In this document: positions 19,004 through 45,160 of the stretch, piece by piece
How the letters are laid out: the number at the start of each line of letters is the position of its first letter
Numbering within the stretch: the stretch's first letter is position 1
Virus record (IMG/VR): IMGVR_UViG_3300045988_033017
Location: 54,699-118,698 of that record
Source of the DNA: a virus
Direction: 5' to 3' (one strand)
Length of the DNA stretch: 64,000 bases
Position numbers and translations under genes: made by a program
Notes under the pieces: generated by a model
Seen by the model: only the letters and a program-made list of their open reading frames with translations
The model's database searches: none
What the model was told of the DNA's origin: nothing

Positions 19004-19685
19004 ATGGAACAAATAACTCGTAAGCTGCCAAGTCCATAATGGGTACGCCACTTAATGTGGCACAGGAGGATACTGGCTGCTATATTCATTATTTTAAATG
19101 AGACTCCTGGCATGAGAGTATAATCATGCCACTTATGGGCCATACATGGAATTGATTCATGATGACTGGGTAGTAAGACGTGTAGAGTTCGTACCAACTC
19201 TTTAATAATGATACGGCAATTTAAGTGGAAACACTACTTACAGAATGGCAGCCTAAGCTGCTGGCTTAATTAGTGGACGTCATTGATTAAGTCGGGTTAA
19301 TTGGAGAGACCTAGAAACAGAAGAGGTGTGGGAAGAAGCATATAGGGCAGTCCACTTAACTTGAAAGCCAAAGGTTAGTAAAGCTGAAATCTCCACTACC
19401 TATCTATGGGTTACAAATAGAAACGTTCTCCAACGTAAATGGAGTGGTGGAGCGACCGTTCGGTCAAGCCCAGTTTGGTAGTTTATGAACAACTAAGTCG
19501 TAGCCCTACGAGGGAGACGTAATTGGTGAATTAACACTCGGCTTCTTAGTAAAACTACCTACATGCTGAACTCAACAGCTGATGTAATAAAATAGAGACA
19601 CACGTAATCTTATTGTTTAGAGTTGTGAAGACCGCGGTTCGAGTCCGCGATGGTCCACTATTATTAACGTTTAAATATCAATTTT
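19004..19685 (+). other. 680-bp non-coding structured region ending in a tRNA T-arm plus acceptor-like minihelix (19626-19661)
   Basis: No ORF; 3' end CGCGG-TTCGAGT-CCGCG then GTCCACTA, which pairs with TAGTGGAC at 19268-19275 about 390 nt upstream; shares the motif CCATAATGGGTACGCC...TGTGGCACAGGA with 15046-15170. Confidence 0.4.
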
Positions 19686-20841: not shown

Positions 20842-21533
20842 AGTTTACAGTACAAGGGAACACGCCATTCAGTGCACATATTTGCCAATATCTATATGAT
20901 TTGGAAAGCAACTTTGCTAAGGAGAAATTGTCATTGCCACTTAGTCAGATTATAGCTCATATCTTATATGGGACTAAGAGAATCAGACTTGGTAATGAAG
21001 CTATTCCGTCCGAAGCAATCACTATTTTGGAAGAATGTATTGAAGCTAATCAGCCAATACCAGTCAATTGTATCTTCGGCAGTTCTGAATCGGAGAAAGA
21101 CTATGTTGACATTGCTGAATTTCAATCTCTTCAAACGTTGAAGGATATAAGCAGGAGAGTTGCTAAATTCTACTATCCAGGCTTGAACATAAGACTAGAT
21201 GTAGTAGGCGATTCAAAATATGTTAGTAAGGTGATGAGACTAGCAACAGTCCTAGGTGGTTTTACCATAGGCACACACCAATCAGCTATTAATGTATCAT
21301 TCGCTCACTACCGGCCAGCACACTATTATTATAAGTCTATTCCGTCTCGAAACATTCTACGAGGTGGATATGTTCCAGCTTGGGATGGTAGAGGTTATTT
21401 ATACTTAGAATCCCCACATGATATTGTGAGTATGATAACTACAGCTGACAATCCTGACATTCTTTCGACGACTGTGGTGTTAGAAGCAAACGAAGAGACG
21501 GTAGACCTTCGTGTGGACTATCTAATACCGTAA
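20838..21533 (+). CDS. hypothetical protein
   Basis: ORF track 231 aa. Confidence 0.5.
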   Translation: MKFTVQGNTPFSAHICQYLYDLESNFAKEKLSLPLSQIIAHILYGTKRIRLGNEAIPSEAITILEECIEANQPIPVNCIFGSSESEKDYVDIAEFQSLQTLKDISRRVAKFYYPGLNIRLDVVGDSKYVSKVMRLATVLGGFTIGTHQSAINVSFAHYRPAHYYYKSIPSRNILRGGYVPAWDGRGYLYLESPHDIVSMITTADNPDILSTTVVLEANEETVDLRVDYLIP

Positions 21534-21913
21534 ATCCACTATTGACGAATGGTGGTAGCAAAACTTGGTCTGAAGAACCAGTAGACATATTCCGGAGTAT
21601 GTCTATGACTTAAAGGCTATATCAAAGAGTTGAAACCTGTATCTATTCGAACAGTAGAAGTTCACCTGATTAAGCATCAGAAAACAGTAGTGCAAATCTA
21701 CTATAGATATTGTGTAAGAGAGAATCTACACGGTCTGCATTATATAATCAGCATGCAGATAGGTCACCAAGCAAACCTCTTTCCTGCCTGGTCAAGTGTG
21801 CATTACGGTCTGTAAGTGGCGAGCGGGTTAACGTATGTCCGATTGCCGTAATGCCGCTTGTTTATTGTTTAGAATAAAGAAAGACTCTCATAACAATAAA
21901 TTTAAACAAAGAG

Positions 21914-23608
21914 ATGGAAATGAAAGGAGCACAAAGGCCAAGGAGGCCTTACCCTAATGCCGCACGTCAAAGGCGGGATGAGAATAAACCTAAGTTTGTG
22001 GATAATAATCAGTTATTCATAGACCAGTTTGTTAATCTTAAGAAATGTCTTCAGCCACGTACCTACGTGCAAGTGGCTAAAGATATGTATCCTTTATGGA
22101 AAGCTAATCCATTACTATGTACTAAGTTTACTGCATATACGAGAATGATAACTCGTAAATGTAGAATAACTACCCCGGAAGGAGTTATACAACTTGATAC
22201 ACAGCAAGGAGAAGGTTTGAAGAATGAAGGTATAATGAGAATGTTGTGGTTGGCAATCTATCACAAACCCACATTCCATGCCAACATTGTTTATTTTGCA
22301 GCAGCTGGATGCTGGAAAGATTTCATTACTATGATGGCTTTAGATGTTCAACTCCATGGCTTTAAGCACAGATTGGATTGGGACTTCTTCAAGAAAGTCA
22401 TATTCGCAGGTCTTGCCAACGGTCAGACATGTGATTTAGTAAAGAAGTATCTTCCTCGTGTTCGTTCCAGTGTTGCATGTAAGACAGATGAGGCAAAAGC
22501 ACGTAACACAGTAGCCAAATTCTTGGCGGAAGGCCTTTATGGTAAACCTAAGGACGAAGGAGACTATTCAACCTATCGTAAATATAGGAAGATGAAGAAT
22601 AGCGGGAAAGCAGCCCAATGGCAGCAGTTAATCAGTCAAAAGAAATTCTTGGAAATTGATTTTGACACTGTTACTGGAAAGGCGCTGGCACAGCTAGTAG
22701 GCTCTAAATTCCTCAAACATCAAGGTCTTAAAGAGAAGTATCAGAACTGGTTGAAGAACCGTAAGAAGCCCTCTAATAGCGGATTTCTACATACTCTGTT
22801 CAAACCATACGGATTGGATAAAATTGCCGAAGAGATTCCAGAATTTATGGAAACTTCTATTAATGCAAGTTTCAATGTATTTGTTGATAATGCTAAACGC
22901 AATAGAGTAGCTCCGTTGTTGGTAGTAAGAGATATAAGTCATTCTGCTAATGGTGAGATAGAGAATAGCGAAACATCTGCTTACAGTTTGGGTAAAGCAT
23001 ATGCTTTATATCATTCTGAATTACTTCCTACAATATTCAAGAACTCCTATGCCGTGTTAGAGGATAACATGGTTCTACGTAAGTTCAAAGGTCAGAATGT
23101 CATTGAGAAATGGAAATCTGACAAAGAAGAAGCATTATGCCAGAATCCTTCTATTATTAATATAGCAGAAATGCTGTGTAAAATGAAAGAAGATTATGGT
23201 GTGGATGAAGGAGAGTTCCCTAGAGGCTGTGTGGTAATTACTAACCATACATATTTTACCAAGTTGAACAACCAAGCATTCGTGGAATTTAAGCAGAGAT
23301 TGCTTAAAGCAAATTTCAGTAAGGAATTTGTAAGAGCATTCAAAGTTATCATTTGGAGAGTTCCTTTAGCATATAAGGGAAGACCTAATGTGGCTTTGGT
23401 TCCAGGAGTGTCAAATTGCTTCTTAGTAAATGGACTTAATAATTCAACATCCTCATTTATTACTGGAGAGAAGAGGTTCCAGGTGCCTAAAACCACTAGA
23501 GACATTTTTAAGCATGCTATGAATCAAGAGTTGCTTAATATGATGATTCTAGAGAAGGATGTTGTCAAGAAGAATGCAAGCGTGCAGAAGAAGCCTGTGA
23601 AGGCCTAA
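21914..23608 (+). CDS. Ro60/TROVE-like protein with C-terminal vWA domain (Rsr-like candidate)
   Basis: 564 aa; vWA MIDAS motif in APLLVVRDISHSANG (compare human Ro60 KRFLLAVDVSASM); upstream blocks MLWLAIY and LHTLFKPY resemble Ro60 PMLFALAI and LLRLSHLKP; architecture is an N-terminal alpha region of about 330 aa followed by vWA, as in TROVE proteins. Confidence 0.5.
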   Translation: MEMKGAQRPRRPYPNAARQRRDENKPKFVDNNQLFIDQFVNLKKCLQPRTYVQVAKDMYPLWKANPLLCTKFTAYTRMITRKCRITTPEGVIQLDTQQGEGLKNEGIMRMLWLAIYHKPTFHANIVYFAAAGCWKDFITMMALDVQLHGFKHRLDWDFFKKVIFAGLANGQTCDLVKKYLPRVRSSVACKTDEAKARNTVAKFLAEGLYGKPKDEGDYSTYRKYRKMKNSGKAAQWQQLISQKKFLEIDFDTVTGKALAQLVGSKFLKHQGLKEKYQNWLKNRKKPSNSGFLHTLFKPYGLDKIAEEIPEFMETSINASFNVFVDNAKRNRVAPLLVVRDISHSANGEIENSETSAYSLGKAYALYHSELLPTIFKNSYAVLEDNMVLRKFKGQNVIEKWKSDKEEALCQNPSIINIAEMLCKMKEDYGVDEGEFPRGCVVITNHTYFTKLNNQAFVEFKQRLLKANFSKEFVRAFKVIIWRVPLAYKGRPNVALVPGVSNCFLVNGLNNSTSSFITGEKRFQVPKTTRDIFKHAMNQELLNMMILEKDVVKKNASVQKKPVKA

Positions 23609-23779
23609 GTATTTCGCGCACCGTTTATTTAATAGTTGAATTAATGTTCTGATTGGATAGAAGATAGATTTCATTATGCATGGAGAAGAGCGCATATTTG
23701 GTATAGTAATCTTTGTGCATATCTAGTAACACTAGGTGGGAATTTATTGGATGATTCCATAGGGACTGGATAGAGATAT

Positions 23780-23853
23780 AGTTCAGTGGTAGAACAGCTA
23801 AAGTCAATCTTTAGAAGAACATCAGTTCGAATCTGGTTATCTCTACACCATTT
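23780..23853 (+). tRNA. tRNA, anticodon loop GUCAAUC (CAA?) with short variable arm; identity uncertain
   Basis: Acceptor AGAGATA/TATCTCT, D-arm GTTC-AGTGGTA-GAAC, T-arm ATCAG-TTCGAAT-CTGGT; a degenerate copy of its 5' end (TGGATAGAAGATA) lies about 110 nt upstream. Confidence 0.5.
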
Positions 23854-23947
23854 TATTAATATGATTCTTTCAACATATGCAGTGTCATTTCTATCTCGAC
23901 TCATAGTCATTATTACGAGTTAAAGTATCTGCAATTGTTGAATAACT

Positions 23948-23985
23948 ACTAAGCTCATCGGTTCGAGAGAATATGTGAGCTTAGT
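23948..23985 (+). ncRNA. hairpin with T-loop-like loop CGGTTCGAGAGAATAT (tRNA T-arm mimic, copy 1)
   Basis: 11-bp stem ACTAAGCTCAT/GTGAGCTTAGT; the loop shares GGTTCGAGAGAATA with the hairpin at 24243-24270. Confidence 0.5.
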
Positions 23986-24105
23986 TTAATACCGAGCAAA
24001 CTTCTATCGTATTTAATACATATTAACTTTTACATGTGGGGAAGATTCATTACCTTTGCACTCACAATTCACAGTTAATATGGATTGTGTGATTCGGGCA
24101 CGTAA

Positions 24106-24189
24106 CCGGTAATTGGTAGCCGCGTAGACTGTAAATCTACTCCTTAATTGGACTGGAGGTTCGAGTCCTCCCGGGCCCACTCACACTGC
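24106..24189 (+). tRNA. tRNA-Tyr(GTA), type II with long variable arm
   Basis: Anticodon stem GTAGA/TCTAC, loop CTGTAAA; 14-nt variable arm; T-arm GGAGG-TTCGAGT-CCTCC; one mismatch in the acceptor stem. Confidence 0.55.
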
Positions 24190-24242
24190 GATAATTAAAT
24201 ACAATATCTGTTGAGGTCAAACTCGACAAACCCTTCTATGGT

Positions 24243-24270
24243 TCGAGAGAATAGTAGAAGTAAACTGCGG
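24243..24270 (+). ncRNA. hairpin with loop GGTTCGAGAGAATA (tRNA T-arm mimic, copy 2)
   Basis: Stem CTTCTAT/GTAGAAG; loop identical to copy 1. Confidence 0.45.
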
Positions 24271-24280
24271 GATTCGTATA

Positions 24281-24619
24281 ATGGTTATTATAACAGCCTT
24301 CCAAGCTGAAGATGACAGTTCAATTCTGTTATCCCGCTCATTATTAATAATAGATGAGATTATGAAAGAGACATCATTTAAGGCAGGTGTTATTGGTGGA
24401 TTATGTGGAGTATTTACCTTCTTGGCATTATTTGCAACCACAAGTAAAGTATCAATTAATGAGTCTGCTGCTACTAATGGAGATTATAAAATCAACAGAG
24501 TGCAGTATGAATTTATTAACGAACTAACCATTTATAAGGTATCAGGTCCTGGTATTCCAGGTATTAAGTATGTGCTTAGAGATTCCGAGAAAGGTGGTTT
24601 ATGTGTATTAAATCCATGA
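24281..24619 (+). CDS. hypothetical membrane protein
   Basis: ORF track 112 aa; TM segment VIGGLCGVFTFLALFATT. Confidence 0.4.
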   Translation: MVIITAFQAEDDSSILLSRSLLIIDEIMKETSFKAGVIGGLCGVFTFLALFATTSKVSINESAATNGDYKINRVQYEFINELTIYKVSGPGIPGIKYVLRDSEKGGLCVLNP

Positions 24620-25926: not shown

Positions 25927-25998
25927 GCCCCATTACTTCAGTGGTAGAAGAGCAAATTCTAAACTTGTATGGCGTTGGTTCGAGTCCAACATGGGGCA
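25927..25998 (+). tRNA. tRNA with CTA anticodon (amber suppressor-like)
   Basis: Acceptor GCCCCAT/ATGGGGC, D-arm CTTC-AGTGGTA-GAAG, anticodon stem GCAAA/CTTGT, loop TTCTAAA gives CUA; T-arm GTTGG-TTCGAGT-CCAAC. Confidence 0.5.
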
Positions 25999-26000
25999 CT

Positions 26001-26106: not shown

Positions 26107-26171
26107 AAGAAGACAAACAGCAATTTCCTGTATGTTGGCATAAGTAAATGAATCTATTGTCTTCTGATGAT
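26107..26171 (+). repeat. tRNA-leader stem-loop element, copy a (AAGAAGAC...ACAGCA...GTCTTCTG)
   Basis: 8-bp inverted ends enclosing about 45 nt, immediately 5' of tRNA-Ile. Confidence 0.6.
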
Positions 26172-26274: not shown

Positions 26275-26347
26275 AAGAAGTCTTACAGCACGAAAGAAAG
26301 TGTTTCATATTTTATGATTTTAATTAAACTAAGAGACTTCTGTAGTT
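26275..26347 (+). repeat. tRNA-leader stem-loop element, copy b (AAGAAGTC...ACAGCAC...GACTTCTG)
   Basis: Inverted ends, 5' of tRNA-Pro. Confidence 0.55.
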
Positions 26348-26420: not shown

Positions 26421-26645
26421 CTCCCCGTGGTATCCAAGAGAGGATGCTGATAATCCCATAATAGCAAATATGGACAACTACTCAGTTCGTGAGAATAGAG
26501 TAGTTTTAATAAGAACCATAATTAACACAATAATATATAGTTTCACTAAACAATCATCAAATCAACTCAACAATCAACCCAACAACTTTTAATTTATGAT
26601 TTGATTAACCTGTTTCATAGTTAAGCCCATAAGTCGTATTGATAT

Positions 26646-26735: not shown

Positions 26736-26800
26736 AAGAAGGCGTACAGCACTAATCATTGTACAGTTTACATGTTTTTGATAACGCGCCTTCTGTGGAT
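26736..26800 (+). repeat. tRNA-leader stem-loop element, copy c (AAGAAGGC...ACAGCAC...GCCTTCTG)
   Basis: Inverted ends, 5' of tRNA-Lys. Confidence 0.55.
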
Positions 26801-36795: not shown

Positions 36796-37863
36796 ATGAT
36801 TAGTATTGTATTAGGAACATTCTTTGGAGACGAAGGTAAGGGACAGACAGTTCACAACTTATGTAACAAGTACATAGGTAAGCGAGAGTCTGTATTAGTA
36901 GTCAGGTTTAGTGGTGGACATCAAGTAGGACATACTGTAAAGCATGGAGACATGATGCACACCTTTAGTAACTTTGGCAGCGGAACCTTACTTGGAGTGC
37001 CGACGTATTGGTCCGAATACTGTACTGTAGACCCAATTACCTCTATGTTAGAGGGTGCAGACTTAGCTAAAATGGGAGTTCGTCCCATTGTTCAGTATCA
37101 CCCTCACTGCCAAGTTGTAATTCCCTTCGATGTCTATTCCCAAGTTAATAACGAAGAGAACTTACGACATGGTACTGTAGGTACAGGGTTTAAAGCTTGT
37201 TTGGACCGAGTTAAGGCAGGATACAGCTTAACAGTTGTAGATTGTATGAATCCTTACATACTACGTGAGAAATTAAATGCCATAGTGGATAACTATTACA
37301 ACATGTCTAGTAAATATCCCTCGATAGACCTAGACAACTGGTGTAGGTTAGCACATGCTTATTTCTTACATACAGGTGCGGTTAATGAAGATTGCTTGTT
37401 AAACTATGACAACCTAGTGTTTGAAGGTTCACAGGGAATATTGCTTGACCAAAGATTCGGCATAATGCCTTATTGCACTCCGTCTAATACAACTTCACAA
37501 AACGCTTACGAGCTGTTGCGGAAAGCAGGCATACGTAAAGAAATCCAAACTTGTTATGTAACTCGTCCTTATATAACAAGGCATGGTAACGGCCCATTTC
37601 CTTCTGGAATGTCTGTTAGGGATGTCGATGACCCTAATAATAAGTTCAACGATTTCCAGAAGACGCTTAGGGCTATTGATTTCGACAAAGACCTATTCGC
37701 ACACAGTGTACGCATTAACCGTTCATTTAAAGTTCCTTATAGGAATGAACGAACGGAGAAATTGTACGTATCACATTGGGATGAAGCATCTGACGCAGAG
37801 CAAGAAATGCTAGCGAATTTATGGATGTCAATACAACCCATGATATTCGATAAGTTAGTTTAG
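36796..37863 (+). CDS. adenylosuccinate synthetase family protein, short archaeal-type (PurA/PurZ-like)
   Basis: 355 aa; P-loop VLGTFFGDEGKGQTV and FSGGHQVGHTV match PurA GDEGKGK and GGHNAGHT; FEGSQGILLD...PSNTT matches FEGAQGTLLD...SSNTT; about 80 aa shorter than bacterial PurA, as in archaeal PurA and phage PurZ. Confidence 0.7.
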   Translation: MISIVLGTFFGDEGKGQTVHNLCNKYIGKRESVLVVRFSGGHQVGHTVKHGDMMHTFSNFGSGTLLGVPTYWSEYCTVDPITSMLEGADLAKMGVRPIVQYHPHCQVVIPFDVYSQVNNEENLRHGTVGTGFKACLDRVKAGYSLTVVDCMNPYILREKLNAIVDNYYNMSSKYPSIDLDNWCRLAHAYFLHTGAVNEDCLLNYDNLVFEGSQGILLDQRFGIMPYCTPSNTTSQNAYELLRKAGIRKEIQTCYVTRPYITRHGNGPFPSGMSVRDVDDPNNKFNDFQKTLRAIDFDKDLFAHSVRINRSFKVPYRNERTEKLYVSHWDEASDAEQEMLANLWMSIQPMIFDKLV

Positions 37864-45077: not shown

Positions 45078-45160
45078 GCGGTTGTAGTGTAAAGGAGGGC
45101 ACATCACTAATTTTAGTATGCGCACAAGTGATAGATTGGGTTCGATTCCCGACAGCCGCT
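45078..45160 (+). tRNA. tRNA-like gene (83 nt) with enlarged anticodon region; identity undetermined
   Basis: Acceptor GCGGTTG/CAGCCGC, D-arm GTGT-AAAGGAGG-GCAC, T-arm TTGGG-TTCGATT-CCCGA; TCACT/AGTGA stem encloses 18 nt containing palindromic TGCGCA. Confidence 0.35.

What the first reader, a model, noticed from the sequence alone, without database searches (positions are those of the whole stretch)
21914..24290. Ro60/TROVE-like vWA protein followed by tRNA T-arm mimic hairpins: candidate phage Ro-Y RNA particle
The 564-aa ORF has a C-terminal vWA domain. Its MIDAS segment, APLLVVRDISHSANG, and two upstream blocks, MLWLAIY and LHTLFKPY, line up with human Ro60 (KRFLLAVDVSASM, PMLFALAI, LLRLSHLKP). 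In bacteria and mycobacteriophages, Rsr/Ro60 genes sit next to Y RNAs whose hallmark is a tRNA-like domain. The 680 bp immediately downstream is non-coding and holds two tRNAs, a degenerate tRNA 5'-end copy, and two hairpins (23948-23985, 24243-24270) whose loops share the T-loop-like sequence GGTTCGAGAGAATA. A Ro60 orthologue with cognate tRNA-mimic RNAs in a phage with low overall GC would be unusual and functionally interesting for RNA quality control or anti-defence.
Basis: partly seen in the sequence, partly recalled or inferred. Interest (0 to 1): 0.85.

Follow-up and report, generated by a model that had tools for sequence, protein, structure and literature searches.

The report
Phage Ro60-like protein; flagged RNAs wrong
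The gene is a distant phage relative of the RNA-chaperone Ro60 sitting in a tRNA island, but the two flagged hairpins are copies of a common phage stem-loop rather than tRNA mimics; the likelier partner RNAs are a different, apparently undescribed family of small stem-loop RNAs found next to this gene family in many phages.

Summary
The 564-aa ORF (21914-23608) is real. It belongs to the DUF2828/DUF7788 family, a remote Ro60 relative. There is no Pfam TROVE hit. A family profile aligns to Ro60 at 94.7% probability over 267 columns, Ro60 structures are the top fold matches, and the MIDAS DxSxS motif is invariant.

The two hairpins exist and share an exact 14-mer, but they are not T-arm mimics. 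The 14-mer folds as a GUUC/GAAU stem capped by a GNRA tetraloop on a covarying outer stem. The motif is widespread in phage contigs, and only 1 of 105 sampled loci carries DUF2828. No Y RNA or YrlA match occurs in the window.

The gene family is instead accompanied by small units: a 6-9 bp terminal stem, ACAGCAA, a variable loop, then CUG. I found them beside the gene in seven phage lineages. Longer units hold a permuted tRNA-like domain with YrlA topology. Short ones nearly reach Rfam's threshold for Dictyostelium Class I RNA. The window has four short units, as tRNA leaders 2.5-9.5 kb downstream, and a RAGATH-34 RNA upstream of the gene.

Verdict: the Ro-Y idea is plausible for the family but unproven. 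The specific RNA claim is wrong.

The parts
21914..23608 (+). Gene for a 564-aa DUF2828/DUF7788-family protein. It has an all-helical N-terminal domain (about residues 31-330) and a C-terminal vWA domain with an intact MIDAS motif (D340-x-S342-x-S344). It is a remote Ro60 relative.
21536..21643 (+). RAGATH-34 RNA (Rfam RF03103), an orphan structured RNA, 270 nt upstream of the gene on the same strand.
   Evidence: 119.1 bits against a gathering score of 60.7. It holds the same position in relatives down to 43% protein identity. Of 63 IMG/VR matches to its core, 39 have the DUF2828 gene an estimated 111-374 nt downstream (38 of them 236-374 nt), 12 are cut off, and 12 have none within at least 1.5 kb.
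21644..21913 (+). Conserved, structured non-coding leader between RAGATH-34 and the start codon. It includes a covarying hairpin GUGUA-AGAGAGAAUC-UACAC and a T-arm-like hairpin AGUAG-UGCAAAU-CUACU.
   Evidence: Alignment A3 with relatives at 44-68% protein identity shows conserved blocks. Fold of 21530-21913 has z -3.2.
23772..23846 (+). tRNA-Leu(CAA).
   Evidence: ARAGORN. Rfam 52.5 bits.
23948..23985 (+). Flagged hairpin A: a 12-position outer stem (one mismatch), G.A, an inner stem GUUC/GAAU and a GAGA tetraloop.
   Evidence: MFE -17.7 kcal/mol, z -5.4. In L016 and L017 the homologous hairpin has GUCU-GUGA-AGAU.
24096..24180 (+). tRNA-Tyr(GTA).
24233..24260 (+). Flagged hairpin B: the same motif on a 7-bp outer stem, ending 6 nt before tRNA-Gly.
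   Evidence: MFE z -4.2. The motif starts 27-28 nt before the tRNA start in the window, L002, L016, L017 and L073.
24267..24339 (+). tRNA-Gly(TCC).
26478..26503 (+). Third copy of the GNRA-capped hairpin (AGUUCGUGAGAAUA), between tRNA-Pro and tRNA-Cys.
26110..26163 (+). ACAGCA unit 1 (AA-GAAGACAA-ACAGCAAU-loop-UUGUCUUC-UG), ending 8 nt before tRNA-Ile.
   Evidence: Script scan. Held-out covariance model R1, 34.7 bits, E 1.2e-5.
26277..26340 (+). ACAGCA unit 2, ending 7 nt before tRNA-Pro.
   Evidence: R1 26.7 bits, E 1.3e-3. MFE z -2.5.
26738..26793 (+). ACAGCA unit 3, ending 7 nt before tRNA-Lys.
   Evidence: Fold. R1 did not report it at E<=1.
33016..33070 (+). ACAGCA unit 4, lying between the SPFH/Band-7 gene stop and tRNA-Ser, 9 nt before the tRNA.
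   Evidence: R1 28.7 bits, E 4e-4.

Best explanation
The ORF encodes a divergent, Ro60-like RNA-binding protein of the DUF2828/DUF7788 family. This family is a conserved resident of the tRNA/tmRNA island of a group of roughly 160-190 kb phages, probably from the human gut, and is widespread in other tRNA-rich phages.

By analogy with Ro60/Rsr, I infer that it binds small structured RNAs made from the island. The best candidate ligands are the 'ACAGCA units': a closing helix formed by the 5' and 3' ends, the single-stranded motif ACAGCAA on the 5' side, a variable loop, and a 3' CUG. In relatives these units lie directly beside the gene, and the longer ones carry a permuted tRNA-like domain (T arm, acceptor-like hairpin, D arm) with the same topology as bacterial YrlA Y RNAs.

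In this window the units are short, without a tRNA-like domain. They serve as 5' leaders of four tRNAs, so RNase P cleavage would release them carrying a 7-9 nt 3' tail. The position directly upstream of the gene is taken by RAGATH-34 and a structured leader, which may be a clade-specific partner or a cis-regulator.

The two flagged hairpins are a third, unrelated element: a generic phage intergenic GNRA-capped stem-loop. It is probably a transcript 5'-end, processing or stability signal.

Shown: the protein's homology and fold, the RNA structures and covariation, and the genomic association.
Inferred: RNA binding, the identity of the ligand, and any role in tRNA quality control, repair or defence evasion.
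For: Protein:
- hhalign of A6 against A4 gives 94.7% probability and E 6e-8, aligning residues 221-515 to Ro60 232-549.
- hmmsearch of PDB sequences ranks human Ro60 (E 1.6e-4) and Xenopus Ro60 (E 3.7e-4) first.
- 13 of 29 homologues weakly match PF25045 vWA_Ro60.
- Curators already label homologues 'Ro-like RNA binding protein'.

Genomic context:
- The gene lies among tRNAs, often with a tmRNA nearby, in the diverse IMG/VR loci scanned.
- It abuts the tRNA array in Tsamsa, Sf14 and P100.

Units:
- In 80 distinct DUF2828 loci there are 88 units on the gene strand and 2 on the other. 49 of the 80 loci have at least one unit, and a 50-kb Bxz1 control has none.
- The window has 4 units against 0.32 in shuffles.
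- A covariance model trained on other clades finds three of the four window units, at 34.7, 28.7 and 26.7 bits. It finds nothing in 50 kb of Bxz1 or in 713 kb of 78 unrelated phage fragments.
- Units lie beside the gene in Lbo-JY46, Tsamsa, and P100, Sf14, ValKK3 and GuuelaD.
- In ValKK3 the unit's loop holds the Shine-Dalgarno sequence and its 3' stem holds the AUG of the gene. That arrangement is typical of autoregulation by an RNA-binding protein.
- Long units give sub-threshold but significant full-length Rfam YrlA hits (39.4 bits, E 3e-5; 37.2; 35.5; 29.1), and they fold into T, AS and D arms.
- In a sample of motif-bearing IMG/VR stretches, 6 of 9 multi-unit loci hold DUF2828 within 15 kb, and the other three have their units at the fragment edge. 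Only 1 of 87 loci without a valid unit holds it.
Against: - No binding data exist for any DUF2828 protein.
- TROVE (PF05731) does not match. The N-terminal 220 residues have no detectable similarity to Ro60. The overall superposition is poor (TM 0.32, model pTM 0.51), so a closed Ro-like ring is not shown.
- In this window the units are 2.5-9.5 kb from the gene and always 7-9 nt upstream of a tRNA. That also fits a plain tRNA-leader or processing role.
- The closest sequenced relatives at 63-68% identity (L016, L017) show no unit within 3 kb.
- The conserved motif (ACAGCAA) differs from the Ro60-binding motif of YrlA (GNCGAAN0-1G; PMC4201824).
- The window units do not hit Rfam YrlA or Class I models at E<=2.
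- Co-occurrence is partly confounded by shared descent within lineages.
Confidence: 0.55

Rival explanations
1. One reading: the two GGUUCGAGAGAAUA hairpins are tRNA T-arm mimics that act as Y RNAs for the Ro-like protein.
For: GGUUCGA resembles the T-loop consensus. The hairpins lie within 700 nt downstream of the gene. In one related clade (L052, L053, L055, L057, L060, L076) a copy sits 30 nt after the gene's stop codon.
Against: - The structure is an extended helix capped by GNGA. Across 16 instances, 96.6% of cells pair, 7 of 7 outer pairs covary, and 0 of 500 shuffles reach the observed covariation.
- The inner stem shows a compensatory GUUC/GAAU to GUCU/AGAU change.
- No 7-nt T loop on a 5-bp stem can be drawn.
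- In a sample of 120 IMG/VR stretches there are 122 valid hairpins with 65 distinct stems, and only 1 of 105 loci holds DUF2828.
- There is no Y_RNA or YrlA hit.
Confidence: 0.03
2. The protein is a vWA/MIDAS adaptor unrelated to these RNAs. The ACAGCA units and GNRA hairpins are only punctuation of polycistronic tRNA transcripts (leader, processing or stability elements). The association with the gene reflects inherited synteny of the tRNA island.
For: - In the window all four units end 7-9 nt before a tRNA.
- 30 of 88 units in related loci are followed by a tRNA within 5-12 nt.
- vWA domains are usually protein-binding modules.
- The hairpins are demonstrably independent of the gene.
Against: - Units flank the gene where no tRNA is within 4 kb: ValKK3 in the 5'UTR, and GuuelaD between terminators.
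- In Tsamsa and P100, units lie between a sigma-70-like promoter and the gene.
- Hosts span Firmicutes, Actinobacteria, Proteobacteria and Cyanobacteria. A host-specific processing signal is therefore unlikely, and a phage-encoded reader is favoured.
- Ro60 is the nearest structural and sequence relative.
Confidence: 0.22
3. In this clade the cognate RNA is the upstream RAGATH-34 plus leader. It would act as a cis-regulatory 5'UTR, for example for autoregulation of the gene, or as a processed partner RNA. The tRNA-leader units would then be incidental.
For: - RAGATH-34 scores 119 bits, 270 nt upstream.
- It keeps its position in relatives down to 43% identity, and 39 of 63 core matches in IMG/VR have the gene at a nearly fixed distance.
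- The whole 380-nt upstream gap is conserved and structured.
- In other lineages units occupy the same upstream position (P100, Tsamsa, ValKK3).
- The RAGATH-34 consensus has G-CAGCAAA after its first helix.
Against: - The CAGC of RAGATH-34 is base-paired and varies (UAGC, GCGC, CACG), so the likeness to ACAGCAA may be coincidental.
- Variant RAGATH-34-like cores exist in contigs with no DUF2828 gene within 3 kb (L206, L259).
- No promoter or terminator could be placed.
Confidence: 0.2

Closest known systems
Ro60/Rsr with Y RNAs (YrlA/YrlB), including the phage Ro60 proteins of mycobacteriophage Bxz1 and Thermus phage phiLo
   Same: - A helical domain plus a C-terminal vWA with MIDAS; the nearest fold and profile relative.
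- The gene is accompanied by several small RNAs whose 5' and 3' ends pair and which carry a conserved motif on the 5' strand.
- Some RNAs have a T arm, an acceptor-like hairpin and a D arm in the YrlA order (topology from PMC4201824).
- The host phages are rich in tRNAs and carry a tmRNA, as Bxz1 does.
   Different: - No TROVE HMM match; the N-terminal half is unalignable; a ring is not demonstrated.
- The RNA motif is ACAGCAA, not GNCGAAN0-1G.
- Rfam YrlA scores are 29-39 bits against a threshold of 69 in relatives, and there is no hit in the window.
- The window units lack a tRNA-like domain and are not adjacent to the gene.
DUF2828 (PF11443) / DUF7788 (PF25043) family; PHROG 850 'RNA-binding protein'; labelled 'Ro-like RNA binding protein' in mycobacteriophage records
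   Same: The window protein is a divergent member. 28 of 29 close homologues match PF11443 and 23 of 29 match PF25043. PHROG 850 matches at E 4.6e-11. tblastn links it to Tsamsa gp247, which matches both Pfam models strongly.
   Different: The window protein itself scores below the Pfam cutoff (13.8 against 29 bits). The family has no demonstrated function or RNA partner in the literature I could search.
Dictyostelium Class I RNAs (Rfam RF01414)
   Same: Short phage units match the model almost end to end. The consensus GaUcuC-CUUACAGCAAU...GagAuC-UG shares the 5' G, the short terminal stem, CUUACAGCAA next to the 5' strand, a variable A-rich loop and the 3' CUG. Scores reach 39.7 bits against a threshold of 41.5.
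   Different: The scores are below threshold, and the window units are not hit at E<=2. Class I RNAs are Pol III transcripts reported only in dictyostelids (PMC7919456). A shared origin or shared protein partner is untested.
RAGATH-34 RNA (Rfam RF03103)
   Same: Full-length match at 119.1 bits.
   Different: Rfam lists it as an sRNA without a function. Its fixed position upstream of a Ro60-like gene is, as far as I could find, not described.
tRNA T arm / T-loop
   Same: The hexamer GGUUCG is shared.
   Different: There is no 5-bp stem closing a 7-nt loop. The sequence forms a 4-bp stem with a GNRA tetraloop.

Membership tests
Ro60 / TROVE family | Match to the TROVE domain model (PF05731). | tested here: not met
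   No hit at E<=10 for the window protein. No hit at E<=1 for any of 29 homologues. Positive control Bxz1 gp220 matches at E 9e-50.
Ro60 / TROVE family | C-terminal vWA domain with a MIDAS DxSxS motif, of the Ro60 type. | tested here: met
   vWA fold at 335-545. D340, S342 and S344 are invariant. The region aligns to the Ro60 MIDAS. PF25045 vWA_Ro60 matches only weakly, in 13 of 29 homologues, best E 0.0023.
Ro60 / TROVE family | Detectable homology to Ro60 beyond the vWA domain. | tested here: inconclusive
Ro60 / TROVE family | Closed ring of HEAT-like repeats with a central cavity. | tested here: inconclusive
Ro60 / TROVE family | Binds Y RNA and misfolded RNA. | not testable with these tools
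   Needs RIP/CLIP or EMSA.
DUF2828/DUF7788 | Matches to PF11443 and PF25043. | tested here: met
   The window protein is sub-threshold (13.8 bits), but 28 of 29 and 23 of 29 homologues match, as do the precomputed domains of the database hits. PHROG 850 matches at E 4.6e-11.
Y RNA / YrlA (the flagged hairpins and the window) | Covariance-model match to Rfam Y_RNA or YrlA. | tested here: not met
   No hit in 21-27 kb at E<=10 or in 17-53 kb at E<=2. In relatives, long units score 29-39 bits against a threshold of 69.
Y RNA / YrlA (ACAGCA units) | 5' and 3' ends form a stem carrying a conserved protein-binding motif; a modular loop; several copies near the Ro gene. | tested here: inconclusive
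   The architecture is met and the strand bias is 88 to 2. But the motif differs from GNCGAAN0-1G, binding is untested, and in the window the units are 2.5-9.5 kb away.
Y RNA / YrlA (ACAGCA units) | tRNA-like domain (T arm, acceptor-like stem-loop, D arm). | tested here: not met
   Absent from the four window units. Present in relatives: L066:4919-5041, L082:2182-2304, Sf14 L388:6446-6565 and GuuelaD L390:5525-5655.
tRNA T-arm mimic (flagged hairpins) | A 5-bp stem closing a 7-nt loop UUCRANY. | tested here: not met
   The covariation-supported structure is an outer stem, G.A, GUUC, GNGA, GAAU.
Intrinsic terminator (flagged hairpins) | GC-rich hairpin followed by a U run. | tested here: not met
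   The terminator scan did not call them. The tails are UUUAAUACC and UAAACUGCG.
RAGATH-34 (RF03103) | Score at or above the Rfam gathering threshold over the full model. | tested here: met
   119.1 against 60.7 bits, model positions 1-107 of 107.
Dictyostelium Class I RNA (RF01414) | Score at or above the Rfam gathering threshold. | tested here: not met
   Window: no hit at E<=2. Relatives reach 39.3-39.7 bits against 41.5.

The most novel reading that the evidence does not exclude
DUF2828 proteins and the 'stem-ACAGCAA-loop-stem-CUG' RNAs would form a second, unrecognised Ro-Y-type ribonucleoprotein family. It would be present in hundreds of phages (FelixO1-like, P100-like, KVP40-like, Tsamsa-like, mycobacteriophages, cyanophages and this gut phage group).

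It might also extend to eukaryotes. Dictyostelid Class I RNAs, whose function has been open since 2004, would be the same RNA class. The uncharacterised protein DDB_G0281243, which was pulled down with a Class I RNA (bioRxiv 10.1101/2020.04.05.026054), could be the DUF2828 orthologue.
Probability: 0.2. Interest if true: 0.9.

Novelty: new variant of a known kind. Interest (0 to 1): 0.68.

Why it matters
Ro60-Y RNA particles are a conserved RNA-surveillance machine. Their bacterial and phage biology is known only for true TROVE orthologues.

The evidence here suggests a much larger, divergent branch. tblastn finds it in 711 phage records, and a profile search finds 2,854 cluster representatives. 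It seems to have its own partner RNA family, including tRNA mimics, embedded in phage tRNA islands.

If the particle is real, three things follow:
- It gives a function to a large domain-of-unknown-function family and to RAGATH-34.
- It offers genetically tractable systems (FelixO1-like phages, Listeria P100, mycobacteriophages) for asking how phages protect, repair or police their tRNA pools against host tRNA-targeting defences.
- It makes the unexplained Dictyostelium Class I RNAs testable.

For genome annotation, it also shows that GGUUCGNGAGAAUA hairpins are a common phage element that should not be read as tRNA remnants.

Tried and rejected
- Direct DNA similarity to known phages: none. 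The nearest isolate homologue of the gene is Leptolyngbya phage Lbo-JY46 at 35%.
- Single-sequence and narrow-profile (A1) searches of PDB sequences found nothing.
- hhalign of the narrow profile against Bxz1 Ro, or against a Ro alignment, aligned only the MIDAS strand, at 21-42% probability. Only the broader 51-sequence profile worked.
- Hammerhead reading of RAGATH-34 (CUGAUGA...GAAAC): rejected. CUGAUGA lies in a covarying hairpin loop and no stem II exists. Rfam ribozyme models do not hit.
- Y-RNA-like pairing of UGGUC with GACU in RAGATH-34: rejected by covariation favouring the local hairpin.
- Terminator reading of the hairpins: no U run.
- A sigma-70 promoter scan of 21.3-24.4 kb was uninformative (15 found, 9.9 expected).
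- MAFFT alignment of whole units misaligned the 3' stems, so I used anchored, loop-trimmed pseudo-sequences for the covariance model.
- cmsearch with filters off lost the long-loop matches. The default mode found them.
- My first unit definition (7-bp stem, UG tail) missed the units of P100, Sf14, ValKK3 and GuuelaD, which I found by eye and with a 6-bp rule.
- The literature held nothing on DUF2828 function or on RAGATH-34.
- Avesson 2011 (the Class I RNA pull-down paper) is not held, and DDB_G0281243 could not be looked up.
- The PurA-like gene at 36796-37863 matches cellular adenylosuccinate synthetases, not clearly PurZ.


Full report
**What is at the coordinates.**
The window is part of a phage genome with 29 ARAGORN-called tRNAs on the + strand. 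It also has a tmRNA-like gene at 19137-19660 (Rfam 60 bits). It has no close sequenced relative. A neighbouring 670-aa protein is 50% identical to one from a human faecal phage contig. Homologous IMG/VR contigs are mostly 90-190 kb.

The flagged ORF (21914-23608, 564 aa) is real. Downstream lie tRNA-Leu 23772-23846, tRNA-Tyr 24096-24180 and tRNA-Gly 24267-24339. The 14-mer GGTTCGAGAGAATA occurs exactly twice, at 23960 and 24240. A diverged third copy is at 26484.

**The protein.**
- Pfam gives no TROVE or vWA hit for the window protein, only a sub-threshold DUF2828 hit.
- PHROGs places it in phrog_850, 'RNA-binding protein', at E 4.6e-11.
- A database search found 601 homologues. Most of those listed carry PF25043 (DUF7788), many also PF11443 (DUF2828).
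- An AlphaFold model built on 29 homologues has mean pLDDT 78.9 and pTM 0.51. It shows an all-helical N-terminal domain and a C-terminal alpha/beta vWA domain.
- Foldseek's only hit with E<1e-3 is human Ro60, but with TM 0.32.
- A narrow family profile aligned only the MIDAS strand to Ro60.
- After collecting diverse representatives (2,854 clusters at E<=1e-3), I built a 51-sequence profile. It aligns to a 19-sequence Ro60/TROVE profile seeded on Bxz1 gp220 at 94.7% probability and E 6e-8 over 267 columns. Residues 221-515 align to Ro60 232-549.
- The same profile ranks human and Xenopus Ro60 first among PDB sequences.
- D340, S342 and S344 (DxSxS) are invariant.

Conclusion: the protein is a remote Ro60 homologue, secure for the end of the helical domain plus the vWA. 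It is not a TROVE orthologue, and a closed ring is not demonstrated. tblastn with the Tsamsa homologue finds the family in 711 phage records, several annotated 'Ro-like RNA binding protein'. The Ro-like label is therefore not new.

**The flagged hairpins.**
I collected all copies from the window and 80 related loci. This gave 16 distinct hairpins with variable, complementary flanks. For the structure 'outer stem (7 bp), G, GUUC, GNGA, GAAU, A, outer stem':
- 96.6% of cells pair, against 36-54% when partners are slid.
- All 7 outer pairs show double changes.
- 0 of 500 shuffles reach the observed covariation.
- The one variable base of the 14-mer is tetraloop position 2 (A, U, G or C).
- In relatives at 63-68% protein identity, the homologue of hairpin A reads GUCU-GUGA-AGAU, a compensatory change in the inner stem.
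- MFE folds agree.

This is an extended helix capped by a GNRA tetraloop, not a T arm. No U run follows, so the hairpins are not intrinsic terminators.

In that sample there are 141 copies. Of these, 122 have at least 5 flanking pairs, with 65 distinct stems. Only 1 of 105 loci holds a DUF2828 gene, and only 18 of 122 hairpins lie within 30 nt of a tRNA. They typically sit in AT-rich intergenic DNA ahead of a gene or a tRNA. They are thus a generic phage intergenic hairpin that Rfam does not match, unrelated to the Ro-like gene. No Y_RNA or YrlA hit exists in the window.

**What does accompany the gene: upstream.**
Rfam finds RAGATH-34 (RF03103) at 21536-21643, at 119 bits. The whole 380-nt gap up to the start codon is conserved and structured. 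RAGATH-34 holds the same position in relatives down to 43% identity. Of 63 IMG/VR matches to its core, 39 have the gene an estimated 111-374 nt downstream on the same strand (38 of them at 236-374 nt). Twelve are cut off, at least six of which are on contigs known to carry the gene. Twelve lack it; these are variants or chance matches.

**What does accompany the gene: the ACAGCA units.**
In Leptolyngbya phage Lbo-JY46 (35% identity) five tandem elements follow the gene. In Bacillus phage Tsamsa (22% identity), the gene follows a 19-tRNA array. Two elements flank a 330-nt structured spacer between a perfect sigma-70 promoter and the gene, and a third lies inside the tRNA array.

All of these share one design: A-A-G, a 6-9 bp helix closed by the 3' end, ACAGCAA(A/U) immediately 3' of the 5' strand, a 25-115 nt loop, then C-U-G.

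- In 80 distinct DUF2828 loci there are 88 such units on the gene strand and 2 on the other. 49 loci have at least one unit. 17 units carry a T-arm motif in the loop. 30 lie within 1 kb downstream of the gene. 30 are followed by a tRNA within 5-12 nt. A 50-kb Bxz1 control has none.
- Long units fold into a terminal stem, T arm, 6-7 bp acceptor-like hairpin and D arm. That is the order described for YrlA (PMC4201824).
- Long units also give significant but sub-threshold full-length Rfam YrlA hits, the best being 39.4 bits at E 3e-5.
- Short units nearly reach the Rfam threshold for Dictyostelium Class I RNA (39.3-39.7 against 41.5 bits). The alignment shows the same 5' G, stem, CUUACAGCAA and 3' CUG.

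**Independent lineages.**
I looked at four further isolates, and each has units beside the gene:
- Listeria P100: three units between a promoter-like site and gp165.
- FelixO1-like Shigella phage Sf14: four units, one of them YrlA-like, in the tRNA array that starts 166 nt after the gene.
- KVP40-like Vibrio phage ValKK3: one unit in the 5'UTR, whose loop holds the Shine-Dalgarno sequence and whose 3' strand holds the AUG. No tRNA lies within 4 kb.
- Mycobacteriophage GuuelaD: three units, the middle one YrlA-like, between the stop codon and a terminator. No tRNA is nearby.

In a capped sample of 120 IMG/VR stretches matching GATAAG-N7-ACAGCAAA, 33 have a valid unit. Nine of those hold DUF2828 within the fragment, which is at most 15 kb. 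Among multi-unit loci the figure is 6 of 9, and the other three have their units at the fragment edge. Only 1 of the 87 stretches without a valid unit holds the gene.

**The window itself.**
It has no exact ACAGCAAA on the + strand. It does have four units with the variants ACAGCAAU, ACAGCACG and ACAGCACU, at 26110-26163, 26277-26340, 26738-26793 and 33016-33070. Shuffles give 0.32. Each ends 7-9 nt before a tRNA (Ile, Pro, Lys, Ser).

I trained a covariance model on 55 units from other clades. It recovers three of the four held-out window units, at 34.7, 28.7 and 26.7 bits (E 1e-5 to 1e-3). It also recovers P100 and GuuelaD units. It finds nothing in 50 kb of Bxz1 or in 713 kb from 78 unrelated phage fragments.

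None of the window units has a tRNA-like domain, and none is adjacent to the gene.

**Interpretation.**
The RNA call is wrong. The general hypothesis, a phage Ro-like protein with cognate structured and tRNA-mimicking RNAs, is well supported by comparative genomics at the level of the family. It remains without any biochemical evidence.

My best mechanistic reading is as follows:
- The protein recognises the helix end plus the single-stranded ACAGCAA of the units.
- Units are released from tRNA or mRNA precursors by RNase P and 3' processing.
- Variable loops, some of them tRNA-like, tether other factors, as Y RNA tethers PNPase to Rsr.
- Where a unit or RAGATH-34 sits in the gene's own leader, binding autoregulates expression.

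A role in quality control, repair or protection of the phage tRNA pool is inferred only from the location. The main rival is that the units are merely tRNA-precursor punctuation. It fits the window but not ValKK3, GuuelaD, Tsamsa or P100.

**Novelty.**
Searches of the held literature found nothing on DUF2828 function, on RAGATH-34 context, or on these units. The resemblance to Dictyostelium Class I RNAs is striking. One of their four pulled-down proteins, DDB_G0281243, is uncharacterised. I could not test whether it is a DUF2828 protein.

Noticed in passing
window 19137-19660 (+): A phage-encoded tmRNA-like gene: Rfam tmRNA 60 bits against a gathering score of 47, 524 nt, longer than usual. 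ARAGORN does not call it. tmRNA hits also lie near the DUF2828 gene in L016, L026, L030, L043, L047 and L080.
   Followed up: partly
window 25927-25999 (+): A tRNA with anticodon CUA (an amber suppressor; ARAGORN labels it 'Pyl'). This suggests possible TAG recoding in part of this phage's genes.
   Followed up: no
window 31031-32992 (+): A 653-aa SPFH/Band-7 protein (PF01145, E 1e-24) inside the tRNA island, immediately followed by ACAGCA unit 4 and tRNA-Ser. From memory (Burroughs & Aravind 2016, not held here), SPFH modules have been proposed as RNA-repair scaffolds with a tRNA-like RNA partner.
   Followed up: no
window 23948-23985, 24233-24260, 26478-26503; IMG/VR loci L267-L346: The GNRA-capped hairpin (outer stem, U/C, G-GUUC-GNGA-GAAU-A, G) is a widespread phage intergenic motif with 65 distinct stems in a capped sample. 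Rfam does not match it. It often lies between an AT-rich promoter-like stretch and a gene or tRNA. It is a candidate new RNA motif of unknown function.
   Followed up: partly
window 24009-24095: GTATTTAATACATATTAACTTTTAYATGTG is invariant apart from the single Y position across relatives at 63-68% protein identity. It is followed by a conserved mini-hairpin CACAAU-UCACAGUUAAUAUGG-AUUGUG-UGAUUC just before tRNA-Tyr. This could be a promoter plus a degenerate unit.
   Followed up: no
L389 (Vibrio phage ValKK3) 3935-3976: A single ACAGCAA unit whose loop contains the Shine-Dalgarno GAGGAAA and whose 3' stem strand contains the AUG of the DUF2828 gene. It directly follows a TTTACA-17-TATAAT promoter. 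The layout suggests translational autoregulation.
   Followed up: partly
L082 (Bacillus phage Tsamsa) 3462-3790: A 330-nt GC-richer, apparently structured spacer between two ACAGCAAA units upstream of the DUF2828 gene. It has no Rfam match at E<=5.
   Followed up: no
window 36796-37863 (+): A truncated adenylosuccinate-synthetase-like gene (PF00709, E 9e-35, 355 aa). It matches cellular PurA structures. Whether it is a PurZ-type enzyme for 2-aminoadenine DNA was not resolved.
   Followed up: partly
window 45078-45160 (+): Rfam calls an additional tRNA (38.5 bits) that ARAGORN did not report.
   Followed up: no
L052:1090-1127, L057:550-587, L057:1362-1572: Related phage loci carry abiF RNA motifs (50 bits) and a group I intron (57.7 bits) upstream of the DUF2828 gene region.
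   Followed up: no
L204, L206, L233, L251, L258, L259: Shorter RAGATH-34-like variants (CUGAUGA directly joined to UGACUUAAAC...UAAAUAAAAGUUGAAACCUCUUAU). Some are in contigs with no DUF2828 gene within 3 kb, so the RAGATH-34 core may be a module used in other contexts.
   Followed up: no
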